Source of the DNA: an uncultured Clostridia bacterium
GTDB taxonomy: Bacteria; Bacillota; Clostridia; Christensenellales; Aristaeellaceae
Direction of reading: 5' to 3'
DNA length: 32,000 nucleotides
Assembly: GCA_937907055.1 (NCBI GenBank)
Contig: CALCTW010000036.1
Span: forward strand, 2,510-34,509
The position numbers and the translations under genes are program-made. The notes below the pieces were generated by a model that did not search any database, had not been told where the DNA came from, and was given only the letters and a program-made list of their open reading frames with translations. Shown here piece by piece: positions 2,232 to 31,002 of the stretch. The stretch's first letter is position 1, and the number at the start of each line of letters is the position of its first letter.

Positions 2232-3122
2232 TCAGCCCAAAAACTGCGCTCTGTATTTATGATATATCATACTGGGACGGTAGGACAGCTTGGACTGACG
2301 AAGCCCTGCTTTCCCCAGGTCCTCTTCCCGGTTGATATATCCGTATGCCAAAAGCCTTTCGGCGGCCAGCTTGCATATAACGCTGTAACCGCCGTATTTC
2401 GCACATCCGGCCACAGCCTTTTCAAAGTGTATATCGCACAAATTGTCATTTATTTCAGAATAAACCGTCATGGCAACCGGACCGCCATTATCGTATAAAA
2501 TAAGACCTCCCAGTCCAAGGCTGCTGATATTTTCCAATGCTTCCGCTATTGTCCTGTATTCTGTCCGGTTCTCTTCAGTATCTCCATGCTCCTCAAGCCA
2601 CTTTTCTGCTACCTTCAGAGCATCCTGCCAGGTTGAAGCACTCAAGGGCAGAGCCCGGACATCAGGAAATTCTCTTCCGAAACGGTTTACATGATTTTTA
2701 TGCTTATGATACTGCGCCCCGCGAAATTCCGCCAGCTTTTCAGTACAATAGATATAGTCGCTGTCGCCAGTCTCCGCCCTTAACCTGAAGCTGTCCGGCC
2801 AAAGCTCTGTGAGCAGCTTCTTTTGGGACTCTGAGAGAAAGATAAAATCAAAGCTCATATTTTTGGAAAGAGCATACTCCTTCAAGCTGCCAAGCACCTT
2901 TTCCGGACTTCCTTCCCCTATCGGAAAGGCAAAGCCTTTTCTGCCGTAAGGCCCATCATAATGACGCAGAAGGAAATCATCTGCAAAGCATATTTTCAGA
3001 TTATATTTATACCGCAGCAAAAATATATTGCCGAAGGCCAGGTCGCTTCCCAAAAGCCCGCTCTTGCTGACAATATTGAATATTTTTTGTCTGTCGCCCA
3101 GTTGAGGCGTTCTGAAGTCCAT
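2232..3122 (-). CDS. DUF2156 / LPG-synthase-C-like (GNAT-fold) protein
   Basis: 296 aa with SDYIYCTEKLAEFRGAQYHKHKNHVNRF and a C-terminal GLRQSKLSYRP-type tail. This matches stand-alone homologues of the MprF C-terminal domain as I remember them. Confidence 0.65.
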   Translation of the reverse strand: MDFRTPQLGDRQKIFNIVSKSGLLGSDLAFGNIFLLRYKYNLKICFADDFLLRHYDGPYGRKGFAFPIGEGSPEKVLGSLKEYALSKNMSFDFIFLSESQKKLLTELWPDSFRLRAETGDSDYIYCTEKLAEFRGAQYHKHKNHVNRFGREFPDVRALPLSASTWQDALKVAEKWLEEHGDTEENRTEYRTIAEALENISSLGLGGLILYDNGGPVAMTVYSEINDNLCDIHFEKAVAGCAKYGGYSVICKLAAERLLAYGYINREEDLGKAGLRQSKLSYRPSMIYHKYRAQFLG

Positions 3123-3311
3123 TACGCATATTTACCCCGTTATCGTTAATATCTATAATAAATATTATAGCATAATAAAAAAATATACGGTTCAAAAAAA
3201 ATTCATCGTCCTTTCCTGATAAACCAGCGTTTCTGTTCCGGCTCAATTACCTTTTCTTCCCAGCCGCGCTGTGATAAAATAGAGAAAATTTATTGAAAAG
3301 GTGGTCTTAGC

Positions 3312-4551: not shown

Positions 4552-4753
4552 AAAAAACAAGAAGGCGGACCGCCTGGGGTGTGCGTAGATTTATAATGTC
4601 TAACCGACTCTATTAAATAGGGAACCTGATTTGGTCTCTGCAGCTGCTGGAGCGTCCTTGAACGAAGAGCAAAAACAGAGCTTAAGGTACCCACCTGCTT
4701 GCGCGCAGGTTTAGGCATATACAAATTTACGGCAGTCCGGACACCACCTTGAG

Positions 4754-7123: not shown

Positions 7124-8590
7124 TTATTTCCCCGCCTTCATGCCGGTTGCCCCTGCCGTATTTCTTCCGGACCGCTCATCAATCATCTTGACAGCGGCCT
7201 CCTCCTTTCTCTTTTTCTCCTCCATCTCTTTCACATAGCCGCGGTAGTATTCCTGAACCAGTGGCGACTTTGACTCCGCCCAGTTGCGGTAGTTGTTGTC
7301 CTGACGAAAATACAGCCGCTGCGCAACGGCTGACCCGCGACGCGGGAGTCCCTCCGGCCACTGCGGCTGAAAGTATACATTGGCCTCAGAGCCTGCCCGG
7401 TCATGTACCCGTCCTGACAGGTCAAACCTGACAGTCAGCGTTTCTCCGGGCATCAGGTCGTCAAAATAGCGCAGCTCCTTTTCATCATGCTCTGTGCTGC
7501 GGTATTCAATGCGGATAGCCGGCTTCACCCAGACCTGGTCCGTACAGTTGACAAAAAACGCCTCCACATACCAGCCCTCAGGAAAAATCACCGCATAATC
7601 ACCGGTCAAATCATTCTGATTCCGCCGTTCCCAGTGACGGTAAAGGTCAGAGGATATAAAAAAGGTGTTTTCCGAATCCTTCCCATTGACACGGCTCCCC
7701 ATAACCAACCGTGTTTCCGGACGACCCGCTATAGCATACTTCTTTTGTACCTGTGACAGCTTATCATTGGCGAACCTTCCCGTCATCCCGGCCGGAAGCT
7801 CCACTCTCCAGGCAGGCGGTGCGGCCAGCTGCCAAAGCACCAGCCCCGCGCTCAGAAGCAGCGCTGCCGCAAGCGGCCAAAGCCTCCGATATCTTCCGAA
7901 GCGGACAGCCCTGAGCAGCTCTGCCGTATTTTGGTAGCGGCTGTCCGGGTCAAACGAATGACATTTTTTCAGAACCGGCCTGAGCCAGCCGCGATAATCC
8001 GGCCCGAGCAGAGCCTCCACTGTCACTCCCAGCGCATAAATATCGCTGCGGCCATCGGTACGGCTGTAGCCGAACTGCTCCGGCGGAGCATATCCCCGCG
8101 TTCCCAGCAGGGTTGTATCCTCACAGCCGTCCCCCGGCATTTCCCTGGCCGCATCAAAATCCACCAGCCGCACCGTGCCGCCGTCCTCTAAAATAAGATT
8201 GGCCGGTTTTACATCGCGATGCACCACACCGAGGGCATGAAGAGCCCCAAGGCCCTCTCCCAGTGACTGCAAAAGGGCCACTGCTTCCTTTTCCGAAAAA
8301 AAGCTTTGTCCGTCCAGCCGCTCCTGCAGATTCGTCCCGCGGATATATTCCTCGGCAATAAAGGTTTCCCCGGCCGCCGTATCCTCAGCAAAATAAATAA
8401 TCCGCGGAAACAGCGACGGCAGGCGGTCCTTCATCAGCTTGCCGGGGATACCGGCATGCCGGATTGTCTTCATCACTACCAGCTCGCCTGTCACTCCGGC
8501 TGCCAGCCAGACCTCACTCCGTTCAGACCGCTTAAGCAGCCTGACCTTTTGGTATTGCTCTGTCAAAAATTCTATTGTCAGACTGTTCAT
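7124..8590 (-). CDS. Hanks-type Ser/Thr protein kinase with one TM helix and ~225-aa extracytoplasmic domain (488 aa)
   Basis: HRDVKPAN, VVMK, DFD, YAPPEQ. TM LWPLAAALLLSAGLVLWQLAA. C-terminal domain unassigned. Paralog of kinase 1. Confidence 0.85.
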   Translation of the reverse strand: MNSLTIEFLTEQYQKVRLLKRSERSEVWLAAGVTGELVVMKTIRHAGIPGKLMKDRLPSLFPRIIYFAEDTAAGETFIAEEYIRGTNLQERLDGQSFFSEKEAVALLQSLGEGLGALHALGVVHRDVKPANLILEDGGTVRLVDFDAAREMPGDGCEDTTLLGTRGYAPPEQFGYSRTDGRSDIYALGVTVEALLGPDYRGWLRPVLKKCHSFDPDSRYQNTAELLRAVRFGRYRRLWPLAAALLLSAGLVLWQLAAPPAWRVELPAGMTGRFANDKLSQVQKKYAIAGRPETRLVMGSRVNGKDSENTFFISSDLYRHWERRNQNDLTGDYAVIFPEGWYVEAFFVNCTDQVWVKPAIRIEYRSTEHDEKELRYFDDLMPGETLTVRFDLSGRVHDRAGSEANVYFQPQWPEGLPRRGSAVAQRLYFRQDNNYRNWAESKSPLVQEYYRGYVKEMEEKKRKEEAAVKMIDERSGRNTAGATGMKAGK

Positions 8591-8665
8591 AAAACCTCCT
8601 TGCGGATACCACTGAAAATGCGGTAGAATAATAAGGTACGAAAAAACTCAAAGGAGACCGTCACA

Positions 8666-9097
8666 ATGCCCGAAAACGACACCGACAAGCTCGAACACCA
8701 GATATCTGCCAGTACCGACCCGGCCAGACTATGCTCCGAACCGGACGGTACCATCCCGCAAATGACTGTCAGTCAATACCTCGACCAGCTCATCACCGAA
8801 CACGGCCTTTCCAAATCCGATATCGTAAACCGCTCCAACCTCGAGCGTTCCTACGCCTACCATATCCTTTCGGGCGACAAAGCCCTGCCCAGCCGTCCGA
8901 AAATTCTGGCCCTGGCTCTCGCCATGCAGCTTTCGCACAAGGAAGTCCAGCGGCTTCTCTACTACTCCAAGCACGAGCATCTCTATGTCAAAAACAAATG
9001 GGACGCCATAATCTGGTACGCCATCAGCAAAAAGCTCTCACCCGCTGACGCCAACATAATCCTCAGCGACCTCTCCATGCTCCCGCTTTTGGAATAA
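8666..9097 (+). CDS. XRE-like HTH protein, paralog of 6619-7062 (143 aa)
   Basis: SNLERSYAYHILSGDKALPSRPKILALALAMQL...WDAIIWYAISKKLS aligns by eye with HTH protein 1. RBS AAAGGAGA. Confidence 0.75.
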   Translation: MPENDTDKLEHQISASTDPARLCSEPDGTIPQMTVSQYLDQLITEHGLSKSDIVNRSNLERSYAYHILSGDKALPSRPKILALALAMQLSHKEVQRLLYYSKHEHLYVKNKWDAIIWYAISKKLSPADANIILSDLSMLPLLE

Positions 9098-24973: not shown

Positions 24974-25831
24974 ATGCAGGAAAGAGTGATCCGCTTCGGC
25001 CCCTCGGGCAACAGCGATGCCTTTTATGATGAAGGCTATAAGCATTCCTGGCAGGCGGCGGCCTGGCTGAAGGGGATGGGCCTGAACGCGTATGAGGTAC
25101 CCTTCGGGCGCGGGATCAATATGACGGAGGAAAGCGCGGCGAAGCTGGCGGAGGAAATGTAGAAAAACGGCATCCTTGTCAGCGTGCACGCGCCGTATTT
25201 CATTAACCTGGCCAATATGGACGCGGAAAAACGGGAAAACTCCTTTGGCTATATCACCGAAAGCGCCAAATGGCTGGACAGGCTGGGCGGCACGGAGCTG
25301 GTGGTGCACACCGGCTCACAGATGAAAATGCCAAGGGAAGAGGCGCTGAAAAACTGCGCGGAGGGCCTGAAGGAAGCCTATCGCCGTCTGGATGAGATGG
25401 GGCTTTCGCATATCATCCTCTGCCCGGAAACGATGGGCAAGCTGACGCAGATCGGCGATCTTGAGGAGATCTGTGACCTGTGCAATGTGGATGAGCGCCT
25501 GATCCCCTGTGTGGATTTCGCGCATCTGCACGCGCTGCACGGCGGTGTGATGAACACGGAAGCGGATTTCGCGGCTGTGCTGGATACGCTGGAGGAAAGG
25601 CTGGGTCCGGACCGCGCGAAGAGGATCCACGCGCATTTCTCCACCATCGAATATACCGCCAAGGGCGAAAAGTGCCACCGCACCTTTGATGATGAAGGCT
25701 ACGGTCCCCGTTTTGAGCATCTGGCCCCGCTCCTCAGGCAGCGCGGCTATACGCCCACCATCATCTGCGAATGCCGCGGCACACAGGCCAAGGATGCCTG
25801 TGCAATGAAGCGGATCTACGAAATGCAATAA
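24974..25831 (+). pseudogene. endonuclease-IV-like TIM-barrel (AP endonuclease family 2) gene interrupted by one in-frame TAG at 25160-25162
   Basis: Track ORFs 24968-25162 and 25184-25831 are in the same frame. Reading through gives ...AKLAEEM*KNGILVSVHAPYFINLA..., i.e. a continuous homolog (HAPYxINL, VVHTG, ETMGK, CVDFAH). The only defect is the single stop. Confidence 0.7.
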
Positions 25832-25845
25832 CACACGTATAAGGC

Positions 25846-25891
25846 AAGGCTGTGACGAAACACACGAAAAAGCGCGTTTTGTCACAGCCTT
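25846..25891. terminator. hairpin terminator between convergent genes
   Basis: 11-bp stem AAGGCTGTGAC (25846-25856) / GTCACAGCCTT (25881-25891) with a large loop, followed by ATTTCG. Confidence 0.45.
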
Positions 25892-25967
25892 ATTTCGATA
25901 TACCAATATTGAAGTTTTAGCAACGGATGTTGTAAAAGCCGTTGATATATTGTTCGCGTGTGAAGGT

Positions 25968-26213
25968 TCATTGTATTTCCTGTTCCAGTTCATCGAATAC
26001 AGTGTCCGCGAAGAACTCTCCCAAAGTGATCCCCAGTCCGTCACAAAGTTTTTTGATCAGGTTGACAGAGACTTCTTTACGGGAAGGATCCAGCATACTG
26101 TATACGCTTGAAGGGGTAACACCGGCATAATTCGCAAGCGCGTTTGTCTTTATTCCCCGTTCCTTCATGATTTCTTGAAAACGTATCACAACTGCTTCCT
26201 TTACGGTCAACAA
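25968..26213 (-). CDS. XRE-family (Cro/C1-type) HTH transcriptional regulator, 81 aa
   Basis: IRFQEIMKERGIKTNALANYAGVTPSSVYSMLDPSRKEVSVNLIKKLCDGLGITLGEFF is a textbook HTH_3 pattern. TTG start 6 nt after GAGGTGA. Confidence 0.8.
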   Translation of the reverse strand: MLTVKEAVVIRFQEIMKERGIKTNALANYAGVTPSSVYSMLDPSRKEVSVNLIKKLCDGLGITLGEFFADTVFDELEQEIQ

Positions 26214-26255
26214 CTTTTCTCACCTCAATGAGATGATAGAAAATTTTTCGCAACA

Positions 26256-26322
26256 GCGTATACGCACTTGCGTTTATCAATAAAAAGAGTTATAATATGT
26301 CAAGAATTTACGCAGATGCGTA
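26256..26322. promoter_or_regulatory. two palindromic candidate operators sharing TACGC(A) half-sites
   Basis: GCGTATACGC (26256-26265, perfect 10-bp palindrome just upstream of the -35) and TACGCAgaTGCGTA (26309-26322, perfect 6+2+6 palindrome just downstream of the predicted TSS). Confidence 0.55.
26268..26296 (+). promoter_or_regulatory. sigma-70-like promoter of the secreted-protein operon
   Basis: TTGCGT (26268-26273), 17-nt spacer, TATAAT (26291-26296). A TTGACA on the opposite strand (26303-26298) abuts it, suggesting back-to-back promoters. Confidence 0.55.
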
Positions 26323-26421
26323 TAAATGTAAATTTGCTGTGGGAATCGATTTTGCAACTGTTTTGCCACCGGGATCAAGAGATCATGGATCAAATAAATA
26401 AATGAAAGGAAAGATAACATC

Positions 26422-27828
26422 ATGAAAAGGAATTTGGCCTTATGCATGGCGATCCTGCTATGCGTGATCCCTTGTTCATCCTTGGCAGGGTCACTGCCGG
26501 GGTTGAATACCCTGTACGGCGAATACATGCCGTCTCCGGCATTCGTTCTTGATCGCGCGGCTTCTTCCTCGCAGACTGTGGGGGAGGATAAGGTGGAGAC
26601 TTATAACCCCTTCACCGATGCCGATTATGACAAGTGGGGCGGTTACCTGAAGGCCTGGGGCTGCACCCTCGGCACGGAAAAGGTGGAGGGCAGCGTGATC
26701 ACCATCCCGGTGAAGAGCGGCGCAAGCACCATCGCCTTTGCCTATGACCGCGCGCAGCACACGGCTGCCGTGACCTATCCCAAAGGAACCCGCCCGGAAA
26801 CGGAGGGGAAGACCGCGACCGGCAATGAAGCTTCCATCCTGCCGGTGCTTCGTATCGCGTTCGGGGTGGAAATGCCGTCCTTCGCGGTCTCCTTCGGGAA
26901 GAAGGCAGCCTCCACAGAAGAAAAGAACGGTACGATCACCGAAAAGTATGCAAATGTGCAGGAAGAGGATTATACCGCCTTCGGCGCGTATGCTGCTGGG
27001 TTTGGCTGCACCCTGAAGGGACACACCTATGAGAACGGCATTGTCACCTGCACCCTGCAGAAGGGTGGAGCATCGTTTACCTTCGCCTATGACCGTATGA
27101 ATGCCGCGGCATCCTTGACCTATCCTGCCGATACCTATATCACGAAAAGTACAGCAAAGAAGACTGCCGCATCCGTCCTGCCCGGCACGGAAAGCCTGTA
27201 CGGCGTTTATCTGCCCACGGCGGTCGCGGCGCTCAAGCGCCAACCGGATGCCGAGCGGATGACCGCGGAAAATGCCACCGAGCAGGTGTTTGGTCATTTT
27301 GATGATGATGCCTATAACACCTACAGCACCTTCATCATGCAGGCCGGCTGCACGGTGACGGGCTACACGGTGGAAGGCGCGGTGATGGATATCAAACTGG
27401 AAAAGGAAGGACTGCAGTTCACCTTCATCTATGACCGTGAGAACAGCAAGGCTACCTTCATCTATCCCGTCGGTACAAGGCCGGAAAAGATCGCGCTGGC
27501 GACCGCCACGCCAAAGATAACGGCCACACCGGTGAAGACCGCGACACCCAAGCCGACAGCAACGCCTACACCCAGGCCGACAAACGTGCCTTTGCCAAAG
27601 CTTTATACACGGAACGAGTGTCTGCGGATCGCGCAGGATCATTTGAATTACAGCCATAGATACAGTTCACGGTATTATTATGGCATCAACTTCGAGCAAG
27701 AATGGAACGATTATAGCTGCTATTACTTTGGACTTGCCTATTATTCGTTGGATGGCCGTGGCAAGGTATCTGTCGGTATAACAGTTAACTGGTATAACGG
27801 TAATGTTGTGTCCTGTACATGGGATTAA
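26422..27828 (+). CDS. secreted protein: signal peptide + 3 copies of a ~105-aa repeat module + Pro/Thr linker + C-terminal Tyr-rich domain (468 aa)
   Basis: Repeats begin LPGLNTLYGEYMPS / LPVLRIAFGVEMPS / LPGTESLYGVYLPT. Each contains ..Y..(F/W)..Y....GC(T)(L/V)........F(T/A)F.YDR......(L/V/F)(T/I)YP. Linker is ATPKITATPVKTATPKPTATPTPRPT. Confidence 0.75.
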   Translation: MKRNLALCMAILLCVIPCSSLAGSLPGLNTLYGEYMPSPAFVLDRAASSSQTVGEDKVETYNPFTDADYDKWGGYLKAWGCTLGTEKVEGSVITIPVKSGASTIAFAYDRAQHTAAVTYPKGTRPETEGKTATGNEASILPVLRIAFGVEMPSFAVSFGKKAASTEEKNGTITEKYANVQEEDYTAFGAYAAGFGCTLKGHTYENGIVTCTLQKGGASFTFAYDRMNAAASLTYPADTYITKSTAKKTAASVLPGTESLYGVYLPTAVAALKRQPDAERMTAENATEQVFGHFDDDAYNTYSTFIMQAGCTVTGYTVEGAVMDIKLEKEGLQFTFIYDRENSKATFIYPVGTRPEKIALATATPKITATPVKTATPKPTATPTPRPTNVPLPKLYTRNECLRIAQDHLNYSHRYSSRYYYGINFEQEWNDYSCYYFGLAYYSLDGRGKVSVGITVNWYNGNVVSCTWD

Positions 27829-27843
27829 GAAAGGAAGTATACT

Positions 27844-28905
27844 ATGAAAAAACTCATGTTTCCCATCGTTTTGCTTTTGACGCTGATCATCGCATCAAAT
27901 GCCGTTGCAGGTGGTTTACTTCCTACTCTGGGCGATGTGTTTGGCGTGGATATGCCCAATATGGAAAAGGCACTGTTGAAGGCGGCTGACGGCACCGAAA
28001 CACTGCCGGATGGCAGCAAGCGGATGAACTTCAGCGGTATCACGGAAGATGATTACGCGGCTTTCAGCGCGTACCTGAGTGACTTTGGCTGCGAACTTGG
28101 GGATTACACCTTTGAAGGCACGCTGCTGACCGCGAACATGATGAAGGACGGCAAATACTTCATTTTCGCGTATGACGGCGCGGCAGGCACAGCCTGCCTC
28201 ACTTACCCTGTTGGCACCAATTGTGAGGAATTTGACCTTGCCATGTACGAGGCGGAGCAAGTTGCTGCTGCTGCTGCGCGCGAGGCCGCGCTTGCGCCAT
28301 ACAAGACACCCGGCAGCATCGTCACCTTCGGTGCGTATGAGCAGGATAACAACACCGGAAATGGCAAGGAAGCCATTGAGTGGCTGGTGTTGGATTATGA
28401 TGTTGCGAATAACCGTGCGTTGGTGATCAGCAAATACGCGCTGGATTGCAAGCTGTATAACACAACAGAGACTGATATCACGTGGGAAAAGTGTACGCTT
28501 CGCTCGTGGCTGAATAGTGAGTTTATCAACGCGGCGTTCAGCACGGAAGAACAGAAGATGATCCCCTCGGTGACGGTGAGCGCGGATAAGAACCCGAAAT
28601 ACAGCACGGATCCCGGAAATGCCACGCAGGACAAAGTATTCCTTTTGAGCATCACGGAAGCAAACAAGTTTTTCAAGAATGATGACACGCGTATGTGCGC
28701 GCCGACAGCCTATGCAGTAGCACAAAACGCCTACATGGCGGATAACGGAAACTGCTGGTGGTGGCTCCGCTCGCCCGGCTACAGTAGTGATAGCGCCGCC
28801 TATGTGGACCACGATGGCTATGTCCGTACCTTTGGCAACGGTGTGTACTTCAGTCATAACGCCGTTCGCCCCGCCTTGTATATAGACCTGAATCTGATCC
28901 CTTAA
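27844..28905 (+). CDS. secreted protein: signal peptide + 1 copy of the same repeat module + C-terminal WWLRSPG-motif domain (DUF6273-like as I recall)
   Basis: LLPTLGDVFGVDMPN...DDYAAFSAYLSDFGCELGDY...KYFIFAYDGAAGTACLTYPVGT matches the module of the upstream gene. C-terminus has GSIVTFGAYEQD...IEWLVLD...CWWWLRSPGY...AVRPALYIDL. Confidence 0.75.
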   Translation: MKKLMFPIVLLLTLIIASNAVAGGLLPTLGDVFGVDMPNMEKALLKAADGTETLPDGSKRMNFSGITEDDYAAFSAYLSDFGCELGDYTFEGTLLTANMMKDGKYFIFAYDGAAGTACLTYPVGTNCEEFDLAMYEAEQVAAAAAREAALAPYKTPGSIVTFGAYEQDNNTGNGKEAIEWLVLDYDVANNRALVISKYALDCKLYNTTETDITWEKCTLRSWLNSEFINAAFSTEEQKMIPSVTVSADKNPKYSTDPGNATQDKVFLLSITEANKFFKNDDTRMCAPTAYAVAQNAYMADNGNCWWWLRSPGYSSDSAAYVDHDGYVRTFGNGVYFSHNAVRPALYIDLNLIP

Positions 28906-28920
28906 ATCCTTTAAATCCAA

Positions 28921-29043
28921 GGCGCCCGCAGGCGCCGGAATCCTACGTATCCCGCGGCGCAGCCGCGAATCAGCGGCCGAAAGGCCGCAATCGGGGCCGA
29001 AAGGCCCCCGTGCTCCTTGTGCCGCCGCCACCGGCGGCGGCAC
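28921..29043. repeat. cluster of five consecutive perfect GC-rich hairpins
   Basis: GGCGCC-cgca-GGCGCC (28921-36); CGCGGC-gca-GCCGCG (28953-67); GCGGCC-gaaa-GGCCGC (28973-88); GGGGCC-gaaa-GGCCCC (28993-29008); GTGCCGCCGCC-acc-GGCGGCGGCAC (29019-43). Confidence 0.85.
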
Positions 29044-29231
29044 GGGGAAGGAGAAACCTGTCGATGGGATGACGATCACCGGAGCTTTTGTCAGGGGTCG
29101 TACCTTCCTTGAGGAACAAGTGAACTGAGATGGAAATACACAAAACGGCCGCGCAGGAAAGGAAGGTGTCGATAAAACCGTAATACATCAAAATTACGAT
29201 TTTGAGGCATCTGCCATAGCCGGGACAGCCG

Positions 29232-29283
29232 AAAAAAGCAGGTATATCAAGGGTTTACGCCCTTCGGTATGCCTGCTGTTTTC
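29232..29283. terminator. strong bidirectional intrinsic terminator
   Basis: ~17-bp interrupted stem AGCAGGTATATCAAGGG / CCCTTCGGTATGCCTGCT with loop tttacg. AAAAAA upstream and GTTTTC downstream. Confidence 0.7.
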
Positions 29284-29521
29284 ATATCCTGACGGATTTT
29301 GTACCTGCTTTTCGCTTGTTATGACTGATCCATAAGTTTATCGCCGATCACATTTTCAGCGCGGTAATCGGCACCACAAATATGCCATCCGGCCGGCGGT
29401 AAACTGCGTTGGACATACCGCAGATCACACAGAGGACTGCGGGCGGTTTCCCTTTTGGAGATACTCGGATTCTTTCATATCCTTGTTCCTTCGGACGATT
29501 GGCTTTTGAACAATTATCTCC

Positions 29522-29606
29522 CGTTCGGTCGGATTTTGCAACACCATTCGGTCGGATTTTATAATAACATTCGGTCGGATTTTACAATGCCATTCGGTCA
29601 GATTTA
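29522..29606 (+). repeat. four direct repeats with exact 23-bp period (iteron-like), core C(A/G)TTCGGTC(G/A)GATTT(T/A)
   Basis: 16-nt cores start at 29522, 29545, 29568 and 29591. Copies 2 and 3 are identical, copy 1 differs at 1 nt and copy 4 at 2 nt. The 7-nt spacers are variable and AT-rich. Confidence 0.9.
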
Positions 29607-29609
29607 TGA

Positions 29610-29627
29610 AAATTAACCGGTCAATTT
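29610..29627. promoter_or_regulatory. 18-bp imperfect palindrome AAATTAACCGGTCAATTT adjoining the repeat array
   Basis: 16 of 18 positions are self-complementary around a central ACCGGT. Function unknown (operator-like). Confidence 0.4.
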
Positions 29628-29907
29628 CTGCGAAATCGTACGGCCAAAAACATAAGCGTTGGCACGACGCGCAGTCGCAGGAGAATTTTGCGATCAATAT
29701 GGGGGTTGGAGCATAGCACCGACAAGCAGAACCGGCGCTTTCCGGGCAACGGAAATACTCCTGTTTTTGCGTTTGTGTACACGAAGGTATTGCTTGCCGG
29801 GGAAGTATGACTCATTTGCTCATTTGGCGGCAGAGAATGTGTAAGCGTAAACAGCACATTCACATCAAGTACGATGGAGCGGGGTTCATCCCTCTCGGTA
29901 TGCTTAT

Positions 29908-29941
29908 GAAAAAGAAAACGGTGTGACCGAAGTCACACCGT
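29908..29941 (-). terminator. terminator of the eda/uxaC transcription unit
   Basis: 10-bp stem ACGGTGTGAC-cgaa-GTCACACCGT (29918-29941), followed on the minus strand by TTTCTTTTTC. Lies ~100 nt downstream of the eda stop. Confidence 0.7.
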
Positions 29942-30042
29942 CAATCCTCGGAAGTGCTGAAATATCGGCATTTCCATTCATTTTTACTTATTACGGTTTT
30001 ACGAGCACCCACCTATTGGCGTAGCCGTTGGTGATGCGTATA

Positions 30043-31002
30043 TTACTTCTGCAGCAGATGGAAAGCGAAGCCCGCGATTTCTTCATTCATGTAGATGAAC
30101 TTCTTGCGACCGTCGGGGGTGAAGGTGGCGGTGCTTTCATCGAAGGTGAAGCCGCGCTGTTCCAGATGCCACTGGGCGCGTTCCACATTCAGGGTGCCCA
30201 GCGCGATGTGGCCGTGCGCTCCGCGGACCTGCAGCTTGTGCATTTCCACGGGGCCGATGAACATGCCCTTTTCGCTCTCGCGTTCGATGGGCAGGCCCAG
30301 CAGACGGCTCATCTTTTCCGCTTCAGCCTTGGCGGCTTCGGCGTTGTCATTGTTCATGCCGATGTGGATGATGGAGAAGCCCAGCATCTTCTGCACGGCG
30401 TCACGGGCGATGGTTTCGATCTTGTCCCAGGCGCCCTGATTGATCAGATCCTCCGGCACCATCCAACTGCCGCCGCAGGCCGCGATCTTCGGGAAGGCCA
30501 GGTATTCGCACAGGTTCTTCTCGCTGATGCCGCCGGTGGGGACGAACATCATATCGCCGTAGGGAGCGCTCATGGCCTTGATGAGCTTCAGGCCGCCCAG
30601 CGCCTCGGCAGGGAAGAACTTGACCGTCTTCAGACCCAGCGCGATGGCCGCTTCCACATCAGAGGGATTGGCGCAGCCGGGCAGGACGGGATAGCCCTTT
30701 TCGATGCAGTGCTTGACCACAACGGGGTTGAGGCCGGGGGAAACGATGTAACCGGCACCGGCGGCCCAGGCGCGGTCGGCCTGTTCGCAGGTGAGGACAG
30801 TGCCGGCACCCAGCAGCACCTCGGGCAGGGCTTCGTGTACCAGACGGATGGCTTCTTCAGCGGCATCGGTGCGGAAGGTGATCTCGGCAACAGGCAGGCC
30901 GCCCTTGCTGAGCGCGGTGCACAGCGGCACGGCATCCGCCGCGTTCTTGACCTTGATGACCGGGACGAGGCCGGCCAGAGAGAGCTTCTTGAGCATATCC
31001 AT
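30043..31002 (-). CDS. eda: KDPG/KHG aldolase (Eda) fused to a ~105-aa C-terminal VOC/glyoxalase-like domain (319 aa)
   Basis: The first ~210 aa (VPVIKV...GGLPVAEITFRT...LLGAGTVL...VSPG...PG..NPSDV...K.FPA...GG......P...F.PTGGI) are Eda-type. The tail (GFSIIHIGMNNDNAEAA...HIALGTLNVERAQWHLEQRGFTF...GFAFHLLQK) looks like a VOC beta-alpha-beta(3) module. Confidence 0.8.
   Translation of the reverse strand: MDMLKKLSLAGLVPVIKVKNAADAVPLCTALSKGGLPVAEITFRTDAAEEAIRLVHEALPEVLLGAGTVLTCEQADRAWAAGAGYIVSPGLNPVVVKHCIEKGYPVLPGCANPSDVEAAIALGLKTVKFFPAEALGGLKLIKAMSAPYGDMMFVPTGGISEKNLCEYLAFPKIAACGGSWMVPEDLINQGAWDKIETIARDAVQKMLGFSIIHIGMNNDNAEAAKAEAEKMSRLLGLPIERESEKGMFIGPVEMHKLQVRGAHGHIALGTLNVERAQWHLEQRGFTFDESTATFTPDGRKKFIYMNEEIAGFAFHLLQK

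What the first reader, a model, noticed from the sequence alone, without database searches (positions are those of the whole stretch)
29522..29627. Iteron-like array: four direct repeats at an exact 23-bp period next to an 18-bp palindrome, with no Rep or regulator gene nearby
Seen in the sequence:
- 16-nt cores CGTTCGGTCGGATTTT, CATTCGGTCGGATTTT (x2) and CATTCGGTCAGATTTA start at 29522, 29545, 29568 and 29591, separated by variable AT-rich 7-mers.
- Degenerate copies of the (T)CGGATT(T/C)TT core occur further left (about 29294-29302 and 29465-29474).
- Immediately right of the array is AAATTAACCGGTCAATTT, with 16 of 18 positions self-complementary.
- The array lies in an ORF-free stretch. The only ORF over it (29425-29697, minus strand) merely reads through the repeats.

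Established knowledge: a ~22-23-bp period (two helical turns) with a conserved core and variable spacer is the classic geometry of plasmid/phage Rep-binding iterons and of some partition centromeres.

Inference, several options:
- A relic or satellite origin or centromere.
- A multi-site operator for an unlinked DNA-binding protein.
- On the plus-strand RNA, repeated AUUC-GGUC-GGAU mini-hairpins carrying GGA motifs, i.e. a protein-sponge-like RNA.
- Spacers 2 and 1 also create minus-strand promoter-like boxes (TTGCAA-N17-GATAAT), which would fire toward the terminator at 29283.
Basis: partly seen in the sequence, partly recalled or inferred. Interest (0 to 1): 0.6.

Follow-up and report, generated by a model that had tools for sequence, protein, structure and literature searches.

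The report
Orphaned promoter repeats of deleted ATPase gene
The four 23-bp repeats are the leftover promoter and docking-site array of a candidate anti-phage ATPase-nuclease gene (DUF4143 / PDC-S01) that has been almost wholly deleted here; the repeats are real, but in this genome they are a relic and not a replication origin.

Summary
Four in-phase 23-bp units lie at 29522-29613, and the "palindrome" is a degenerate fifth unit.

Read on the minus strand, the array overlaps a sigma-70-like promoter (TTGCAA-17-GATAAT). After it come an ATG, six codons, a deletion scar of about 1,150 bp, the last ~35 codons of an AAA_14/DUF4143 gene (PADLOC PDC-S01), and a strong terminator.

- **Intact orthologue:** a same-genus genome has the whole 425-aa gene behind six copies of the same motif.
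- **Family-wide pattern:** in my survey of 76 homologues from many phyla, 58 had period-23 (or 46/69) arrays just upstream. None of 67 far-upstream controls did.
- **Motif differs by lineage:** the core tracks residue 254 at the start of the predicted winged-helix recognition helix. The formal phylogenetic test was underpowered.
- **Orphan status:** no DUF4143 gene was found in this 89%-complete genome.

The most likely past function is self-binding of the protein at its own promoter for autorepression. That is an inference.

Origin, centromere and RNA-sponge readings are not supported.

Earlier notes of this scan report the same array type on other DNA.

The parts
29522..29613 (-). Four well-kept 23-bp units. 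On the minus strand the core reads AAAATC(C/T)GACCGAA(T/C)G followed by a variable 7-nt spacer. Units run 29544-29522 (promoter-proximal), 29567-29545, 29590-29568 and 29613-29591.
   Evidence: 76% identical to the six-unit array in front of the intact orthologue G003:C68.
29614..29636 (-). Degenerate fifth (distal) unit, in phase.
   Evidence: minus strand reads ATTTCGCAGAAATTGACCGGTTA, and its core matches AAATCTGACCG with one base missing.
29513..29541 (-). Sigma-70-like promoter TTGCAA-17-GATAAT. The core of the proximal repeat lies in the spacer between the -35 and -10 boxes.
   Evidence: Same geometry at the orthologue (TTGTAA-17-TATAAT) and at L115 (TTGCCA-17-TATAAT with TG).
29460..29478 (-). 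5' stump of the AAA_14/DUF4143 (PDC-S01) gene: ATG at 29478-29476 plus about six codons (MKESEY).
   Evidence: aligns with L021:1634-1652, the start of the intact 425-aa gene.
29455..29459 (-). Deletion junction. About 1,150 bp of the orthologue's 1,278-bp gene (L021 ~1653-2803) is missing here.
29348..29454 (-). 3' stump of the gene: the last ~35 codons (...CVICGMSNAVYRRPDGIFVVPITALKM, stop at 29350-29348). A missing base puts it out of frame with the ATG, and that reading frame stops at 29427-29425.
   Evidence: 85% nucleotide identity to L021:2804-2909 (G003) and to L011:1501-1607 (G001).
29231..29277 (-). Intrinsic terminator of the former gene: a long hairpin followed by UUUUUU.
   Evidence: -30.4 kcal/mol, z = -4.16, 0 of 200 shuffles fold as well.
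29661..29811 (+). Fragment homologous (71%) to the DNA just downstream of a MobA/VirD2-type relaxase gene in same-genus genome G003:C140. Mobile-element debris next to the array.
25798..30031 (.). 4.2-kb segment absent from same-genus genome G001, where the TIM-barrel gene and eda are 87 bp apart. It carries a Cro/C1 HTH gene, a 468-aa unknown, a DUF6273 protein, the PDC-S01 stump with its array, and the relaxase-flank fragment.

Best explanation
The array is the cis-acting promoter module of a single-gene cassette. That cassette encoded an AAA+ ATPase / winged-helix / PD-(D/E)xK nuclease protein (Pfam AAA_14 + DUF4143, PADLOC candidate defence gene PDC-S01).

**In intact relatives.** Two to nine 23-bp units sit head to tail directly upstream of the gene. 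The proximal unit's core lies between the -35 and -10 boxes. I infer that the protein's winged helix reads the units, one protomer per unit, and that this shuts off its own promoter (autorepression). It may also assemble an oligomer on the DNA.

**In this genome.** An internal deletion of about 1,150 bp plus a 1-base frameshift has destroyed the gene. What remains is the array, the promoter, 6 codons, about 35 terminal codons and the terminator, all inside a 4.2-kb patch of mobile-element debris. No other DUF4143 gene was found in the assembly, so the array is most likely a non-functional relic of a fairly recent gene loss.

**Shown:** the repeat, the gene stump, the orthology, the family-wide association and the promoter geometry.
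**Inferred:** protein binding and autorepression.
For: - **Gene stump and intact orthologue:**
- **Family assignment:** P0001 matches Pfam AAA_14 + DUF4143 and PADLOC PDC-S01 at E = 4e-61.
- **Own survey:** 58 of 76 upstream regions of homologues (44-83% identity, many bacterial phyla plus Methanomassiliicoccales) carry period 23/46/69 arrays, against 0 of 67 far-upstream controls. Period 23 is the best period between 12 and 44 in 65 of 82 regions.
- **Direct link of this motif to the gene:** the motif pair at a 23-bp spacing lies directly before intact homologous genes in 4 metagenome contigs (L110, L115, L116, L122).
- **Promoter geometry** is conserved across three loci.
- **DNA-binding domain:** an AF2 model (pLDDT 94) shows AAA+, winged helix (H3 253-265, wing 269-292) and PD-(D/E)xK domains. 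The best Foldseek matches are archaeal AAA+ ATPases 2qen and 2fna, then Orc1/Cdc6 on origin DNA, 2qby.
- **Motif tracks residue 254:** the CCGA[AT][TC] core occurs only with D254 (11 of 11; 0 of 38 non-D). TCG[GA][AG]TT occurs only with E254 (6 of 6; 0 of 46 non-E). On a tree built without the winged-helix columns these need 6 and 4 DNA-state changes.
- **Mutual information** is enriched in H3 plus wing (6 of the top 25 columns, p = 0.015; entropy-matched p = 0.0085).
- **No DUF4143 gene** in G000.
Against:
- The independent-pairs test on well-supported branches had too few pairs to reach significance. My first domain-level mutual-information tally showed no clear enrichment.
- The genome is only 89% complete, so a paralogue that could still use the array may be unassembled.
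- The four cores are no more decayed than those of the intact orthologue's array. That fits recent loss, but it would also fit continued selection.
- The deletion is seen in one metagenome-assembled contig and could not be checked against reads.
Confidence: 0.8

Rival explanations
1. The orphan array is still functional. It would be kept as a binding platform, decoy or regulatory site for a protein encoded elsewhere (an unassembled or incoming PDC-S01 paralogue), or as a homology landing pad that lets a new cassette be re-acquired.
For: - Three of the four cores are identical over 14-16 nt while the spacers are fully diverged.
- Arrays with the same motif but no intact gene are frequent in metagenome contigs: about 8 of 12 distinct loci, three of them with gene stumps.
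- The genome is 89% complete.
Against: - No DUF4143 match in the assembly.
- The contrast between conserved cores and diverged spacers is inherited from the time before the loss.
- Both stump reading frames are broken, here and at L121, in different places.
- The tail shows no DNA-level conservation that would mark a recombination substrate: third-codon identity is 0.31-0.35, as in the rest of the gene.
Confidence: 0.1
2. The repeats are iterons of a relic or satellite replication origin, or a partition centromere of a plasmid or phage.
For: - The 23-bp period with a conserved core and variable spacer resembles iterons (general knowledge).
- Mobile-element debris, including a relaxase-flank fragment, lies next to the array.
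Against: - There is no Rep, ParA or ParB gene.
- The array type sits at the promoter of PDC-S01 genes in chromosomes across phyla.
- PLSDB plasmids and INPHARED phages give no match.
- The orientation and distance to the -10 box are fixed relative to the ATPase gene.
Confidence: 0.04
3. The array acts as RNA: a plus-strand transcript with repeated GGA mini-hairpins that sponges an RNA-binding protein.
For: GGA-containing repeats on the plus strand, from the sequence only.
Against: - The plus-strand fold is weaker than shuffled sequence (z = +1.12; 175 of 200 shuffles fold at least as well).
- No Rfam family matches here.
- In relatives the motif sequence changes freely while phase and promoter position are kept, which is a DNA-level constraint.
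Confidence: 0.02
4. The repeats are recombination or mobility sites that move the one-gene cassette, not operators.
For: - The gene or its stumps lie in three different contexts in three same-genus genomes.
- Distribution is sporadic: 4 of 61 family genomes.
- Close homologues occur across phyla and in archaea.
- Stumps repeatedly keep the 3' tail (WIN, G001, L119, L121).
Against: - No recombinase is linked.
- The array lies on one side of the gene only.
- The array's position is tied to the -35 and -10 boxes.
- The tail is not conserved at synonymous sites.
Confidence: 0.04

Closest known systems
PADLOC phage-defence candidate PDC-S01 (Pfam AAA_14 + DUF4143, COG1373)
   Same: The deleted gene belongs here. 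The orthologue P0001 hits PDLC04790 at E = 4e-61 and both Pfam domains. The family is reported as the fourth most common 'defence' system in prokaryotes, with multiple inter-domain transfers and validation still pending (PMC12988326; PMC13356809).
   Different: Those papers treat it as a bare single gene. None of the papers I found mentions an upstream repeat array. In this window the gene itself is destroyed.
Plasmid iterons with their Rep initiator (R6K, pPS10, P1, F; general knowledge)
   Same: Head-to-tail units of about 22 bp with a conserved core and variable spacer, lying next to and overlapping the promoter of the gene whose winged-helix product is thought to bind them. Copy number varies (2-9 in relatives).
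   Different: There is no replicon, no Rep fold and no AT-rich unwinding element. The partner is an AAA+ ATPase-nuclease, and the arrays are chromosomal.
Archaeal Orc1/Cdc6 with origin recognition boxes (PDB 2qby)
   Same: An AAA+ domain plus C-terminal winged helix, encoded next to repeated binding boxes. 2qby is among the top Foldseek matches (E = 1.7e-5).
   Different: The overall TM-score is low (0.23-0.25). There is an extra PD-(D/E)xK nuclease domain, no evidence of origin function, and the units are direct repeats at a fixed 23-bp phase.
Archaeal AAA+ ATPases PAB2304 (2qen) and SSO1545 (2fna)
   Same: Best structural matches of the modelled protein (E = 6e-6 and 9e-6, TM 0.40-0.48).
   Different: No function or DNA site is given in their PDB titles, and sequence identity is 13-14%.

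Membership tests
Promoter-proximal 23-bp phased array of PDC-S01 (AAA_14/DUF4143) genes (defined from my own survey) | Head-to-tail units at an exact 23-bp period, two or more copies | tested here: met
   Four good units plus one degenerate unit, period 23.
Promoter-proximal 23-bp phased array of PDC-S01 (AAA_14/DUF4143) genes (defined from my own survey) | Lies within about 30-200 bp upstream of the start codon of a PDC-S01 gene, on the gene's strand | tested here: met
   The array ends 44 bp before the ATG of the gene stump. An orthologous intact gene stands behind the same array in G003.
Promoter-proximal 23-bp phased array of PDC-S01 (AAA_14/DUF4143) genes (defined from my own survey) | The proximal unit is interleaved with the -35 and -10 boxes | tested here: met
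   TTGCAA-17-GATAAT with the unit core in the spacer. The same holds in L021 and L115.
Promoter-proximal 23-bp phased array of PDC-S01 (AAA_14/DUF4143) genes (defined from my own survey) | Unit skeleton: A-tract, variable core, then AAT | tested here: met
   The window consensus AAAATCCGACCGAATG fits the survey consensus AAAATCTGACCGAATGAAAATTA.
PDC-S01 gene (intact member) | AAA_14 P-loop domain and DUF4143 PD-(D/E)xK domain present in one open frame | tested here: not met
   Only about 6 + 35 codons remain and they are frameshifted. The stump ORFs have no Pfam hit. It is a pseudogene stump, not a member.
Plasmid or phage iteron origin | Adjacent Rep initiator gene on an autonomous or integrated replicon | tested here: not met
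   No such gene among the ORFs from 25.8 to 31 kb. No match to plasmids or phages.
Plasmid or phage iteron origin | Supports replication | not testable with these tools
   This needs a replication assay.
Partition centromere (parS/parC type) | Adjacent parA/parB-type operon | tested here: not met
   None found in the flanking ORFs.
CRISPR array | Repeats of about 24-48 bp separated by unique spacers of similar length | tested here: not met
   The whole period is 23 bp, with a 16-bp core and a 7-bp spacer.
Structured regulatory RNA (Rfam) | Match to a covariance model, or a fold better than shuffled sequence | tested here: not met
   No Rfam hit in the region. Fold z = +1.12.

The most novel reading that the evidence does not exclude
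The 23-bp arrays may be more than autorepression operators. They could be assembly platforms, analogous to origin recognition boxes, on which the AAA+ winged-helix nuclease is parked as an inactive oligomer and from which it is released or activated on infection. Gene-less arrays such as this one would then persist because they still matter, for example by titrating incoming paralogues or serving as landing pads for cassette re-acquisition. The single recognition-helix position 254 (D, E, N or K) would act as a simple code that retargets each lineage to its private units.
Probability: 0.12. Interest if true: 0.8.

Novelty: new variant of a known kind. Interest (0 to 1): 0.5.

Why it matters
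PDC-S01 is reported as one of the most abundant candidate defence genes in bacteria and archaea, yet it has no tested function (PMC12988326, PMC13356809). A conserved, phased and lineage-private repeat array at its promoter gives the family its first concrete experimental handle: a predicted DNA ligand, and a predicted specificity residue.

This window adds the natural gene-less state. The array and the gene tail outlive the gene, which explains iteron-like arrays that have no nearby Rep gene, and it shows how fast these cassettes turn over inside mobile-element debris. As an object in this genome the array is most likely dead DNA. The interest therefore lies in the family-level pattern more than in this locus.

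Tried and rejected
- **RNA reading.** Rfam gathering scan of the whole window found only 6S RNA at 4568-4747. The plus-strand fold of the array is no better than shuffled sequence. Rejected.
- **Dispersed repeat.** BLAST and pattern searches of the whole assembly found the array only here. Rejected.
- **Plasmid or phage origin.** Distant blastn against PLSDB and INPHARED found nothing.
- **Domain-level mutual information** between protein columns and repeat positions showed no clear enrichment in the first tally and a modest one when restricted to recognition helix plus wing.
- **Independent-pairs test** of residue 254 against core class was underpowered on well-supported branches and is formally inconclusive.
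- **Tail conservation.** I tested the idea, a lead from earlier scan notes, that the gene's 3' tail survives deletions because it is a DNA-level conserved recombination block. Third-codon identity and codon identity in the last 45 codons are no higher than elsewhere in the 22 closest homologues. Not supported in this clade.
- **Solved structures.** A PDB sequence search with P0001 found nothing meaningful.
- **Literature.** Searches for DUF4143, PDC-S01, COG1373 and 'AAA_14' with 'direct repeats' found no description of the arrays.

Full report
**1. The observation**

The window holds a tandem array at 29524-29605 with period 23, 3.6 copies and score 122.

None of 30 Markov-1 simulated windows reached more than two in-phase copies. 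In the real window, 23 is the only period between 15 and 40 that gives three or more copies. The array occurs once in the 2.55-Mb, 140-contig, 89%-complete assembly.

The neighbouring 'palindrome' falls exactly on the next phase position (29614). On the minus strand it reads AAATTGACCGGTTA, a unit core with one base lost, so it is a degenerate fifth unit. The two 'degenerate copies further left' are out of phase. One lies inside coding sequence of the gene stump described below.

**2. What lies next to the array**

On the minus strand the array is followed by, in order:
- a sigma-70-like promoter, TTGCAA-17-GATAAT, at 29541-29513;
- a GAAGGA ribosome-binding motif;
- an ATG at 29478-29476 with the codons MKESEY;
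- after a junction at about 29459-29455, the reading ...CVICGMSNAVYRRPDGIFVVPITALKM with its stop at 29350-29348;
- a strong hairpin with a U-run at 29277-29231 (-30.4 kcal/mol, z = -4.16).

A search of relatives found the key. In same-genus genome G003, contig 68, window 29460-29609 (array, promoter and first codons) matches at 76% and window 29350-29454 (the tail) at 85%. The two blocks lie 1.15 kb apart there. Between them G003 has an intact 425-aa gene (P0001), and six copies of the same GAAATCYGRCCGA unit at a 23-bp period run up to its TATAAT box.

P0001 carries Pfam AAA_14 and DUF4143 and matches the PADLOC model PDC-S01 at E = 4e-61. The window therefore holds the promoter, the array and two stumps of a PDC-S01 gene. 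That gene has lost about 1,150 of its 1,278 bp, plus one further base that breaks the frame. The 90-aa minus-strand ORF that 'reads through the repeats' simply ends in the stump's first 17 codons.

A second same-genus genome, G001, keeps only the tail, in another context between an HtrA-like protease gene and rpmA. A Pfam DUF4143 search of the window's own genome found no other copy.

**3. Is the array a property of the gene family?**

Homologues at 44-46% identity in the same bacterial family each have their own, different direct repeats at a 23-bp period directly before the -10 box.

I then fetched 80 loci from genome contigs. They range from 44 to 83% identity and come from Clostridia, Bacilli, Bacteroidota, Spirochaetota, Fibrobacterota, Kiritimatiellia, Actinomycetota and Methanomassiliicoccales.
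- With TRF, 58 of 76 upstream regions (300 bp) carry an array of period 23 (54 regions), 46 (3) or 69 (1). None of 67 control segments taken 600-900 bp upstream does.
- By autocorrelation, 23 is the best period between 12 and 44 in 65 of 82 regions.
- Put in register, the units share an A-tract, a variable core and an AAT triplet. The consensus is AAAATCTGACCGAATGAAAATTA, and the window's units fit it.

An exact-pattern scan of metagenome contigs looked for two window-type cores 23 bp apart and gave 15 contigs, about 12 of them distinct.
- Four have an intact homologous gene directly behind the array: L110, L115 (nine units), L116 and L122.
- Three have stumps. L119 and L121 keep only the last 35-50 codons, as here. 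L118 keeps a middle piece.
- The rest have no recognisable gene.

Gene-less and stump-bearing arrays of this type are therefore common.

**4. How it most likely works**

The promoter geometry is the same in the window, in G003 and in L115. The -35 hexamer is formed by the end of a spacer and the first bases of the proximal unit. The unit core fills the 17-bp spacer, and the -10 box follows. Anything bound to the proximal unit would exclude RNA polymerase.

An AlphaFold2 model of the L115 protein, built from 77 aligned homologues, has pLDDT 94 and pTM 0.93. It shows:
- an AAA+ domain (about residues 1-190);
- a lid;
- a winged helix (helices 216-228, 236-247 and 253-265, with a wing at 269-292);
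- a PD-(D/E)xK domain at 339-420.

The best Foldseek matches in the PDB are the archaeal AAA+ ATPases 2qen and 2fna, followed by Orc1/Cdc6 bound to origin DNA, 2qby.

Listing the repeat consensus beside the recognition helix shows a simple correspondence with residue 254 of the L115 protein:

| Residues 253-255 | Repeat core |
|---|---|
| x-D-T | ACCGAAT or CGGAAT |
| V/L-E-T | TCGG(A/G)TT |
| A/L-N-T | ACTGAAT |
| x-K-T | TCCAAT |

The CCGA[AT][TC] core occurs only with D254 (11 of 11; 0 of 38 others). The TCG[GA][AG]TT core occurs only with E254 (6 of 6; 0 of 46 others). On a tree built without the winged-helix columns, these DNA states need 6 and 4 changes. One tight clade (L027-L030, L045) holds three helix types, each with its matching core.

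Mutual information is modestly enriched in the recognition helix plus wing (6 of the top 25 columns, p = 0.015; entropy-matched p = 0.0085).

The strict independent-pairs test on well-supported branches had too few pairs. I therefore rate the covariation as suggestive, not proven.

The inference is that the protein reads its own units and represses its own promoter. No binding or expression data exist.

**5. The setting in this genome**

Compared with G001, where a TIM-barrel (AP_endonuc_2) gene and eda are 87 bp apart, the window has an extra 4.2 kb at 25798-30031. This segment holds:
- a Cro/C1 HTH gene;
- a 468-aa unknown;
- a DUF6273 protein;
- the PDC-S01 stump with its array;
- a 150-bp fragment (29661-29811) that matches the DNA just downstream of a MobA/VirD2 relaxase gene in G003.

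The array thus lies in decaying mobile-element DNA.

In three same-genus genomes the gene or its stump lies in three different contexts. Only 4 of 61 genomes of the bacterial family have a close homologue. Both points fit a horizontally moving accessory gene.

**6. Rival readings**

- **Origin or centromere.** No Rep or Par gene is present, plasmids and phages give no match, and the array's position is tied to the ATPase promoter.
- **RNA sponge.** The fold is weaker than shuffled sequence and Rfam has no match.
- **Mobility sites.** No recombinase is linked, the array is one-sided, and the gene tail is not conserved at synonymous sites. That last result also argues against a conserved-tail recombination block in this clade, an idea raised in earlier scan notes.
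- **Still-functional orphan array.** This cannot be excluded. The cores are as intact as those of the intact orthologue, and the genome is incomplete. However, no partner protein was found.

**7. Comparison with what is known, and novelty**

PDC-S01 is published as a very abundant, untested single-gene defence candidate (PMC12988326; PMC13356809). DUF4143 is listed as a PD-(D/E)xK family of unknown function (PMC3424549). I found no paper that describes upstream repeat arrays.

Earlier notes of this scan report the same 23-bp, and in other sub-families 33-bp, arrays on other DNA, including orphan arrays and leftover tails. I reached the reading before consulting those notes and re-tested the claims on my own data. 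The name PDC-S01 came from the notes and was confirmed.

Functionally the closest analogues are iteron/Rep modules and Orc1/Cdc6 with origin recognition boxes. Membership in either fails on the defining features.

The locus itself is an ordinary relic. The family-level element appears undescribed in the searched literature.

**8. Limits**

- Binding, autorepression and any defence role are all inferences.

Noticed in passing
window 4568-4747 (+): 6S RNA (SsrS) gene: Rfam RF00013, 61 bits, full length.
   Followed up: no
window 25798-30031: 4.2-kb segment absent from same-genus genome G001. It carries a Cro/C1 HTH gene (25968-26213, minus), a 468-aa protein with no Pfam hit (26422-27828), a DUF6273 protein (27844-28905), the PDC-S01 stump and a relaxase-flank fragment. 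Probably the remains of an integrated mobilisable element.
   Followed up: partly
window 30043-31002 (-): The eda (KDPG aldolase) ORF is 319 aa, but the aldolase domain covers only residues 6-197. A C-terminal extension of about 120 aa with no Pfam hit is present at the same length in G001.
   Followed up: no
L021 (G003:C68) about 1130-1290; L026 (G003:C127) upstream region: A second, different repeat set with a period of about 34-36 bp lies further upstream of the 23-bp arrays. It is AGATCCCCG x5 in L021 and GCCACTTTTCAATAT x3 in L026. These may be relics of a 33-bp-type PDC-S01 array or a second class of site.
   Followed up: no
L021 (G003:C68) about 3060-3150: Downstream of the intact PDC-S01 gene there are repeats that look like CRISPR repeats (TTTCAATCCAATCACCCCGCGCGGGGTGAGAC, a spacer of about 36 nt, then TTTCAATCCA...). 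The intact copy may therefore sit in a defence neighbourhood.
   Followed up: no
L119 about 689-1000; L121 (reverse) about 8533-8700; L011 about 1480-1600; window 29348-29478: Four independent stumps of this gene all keep the last 35-50 codons, and two of them, like the window, are joined almost directly to the start codon. The clustering of 3' breakpoints around codons 373-392 is unexplained. Synonymous-site conservation does not account for it.
   Followed up: partly
L111 about 3066-3250 (oriented): An array closely related to G003's, with the same spacers, is followed there by a MATE-type transporter gene with its own TATAAT box in place of the ATPase gene. This is either another orphan array or a promoter takeover.
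   Followed up: no
window 28962-29006: A 20-bp tandem repeat of 2.1 copies (GCCGCGAATCAGCGGCCGAAAG) lies just downstream of the DUF6273 gene.
   Followed up: no
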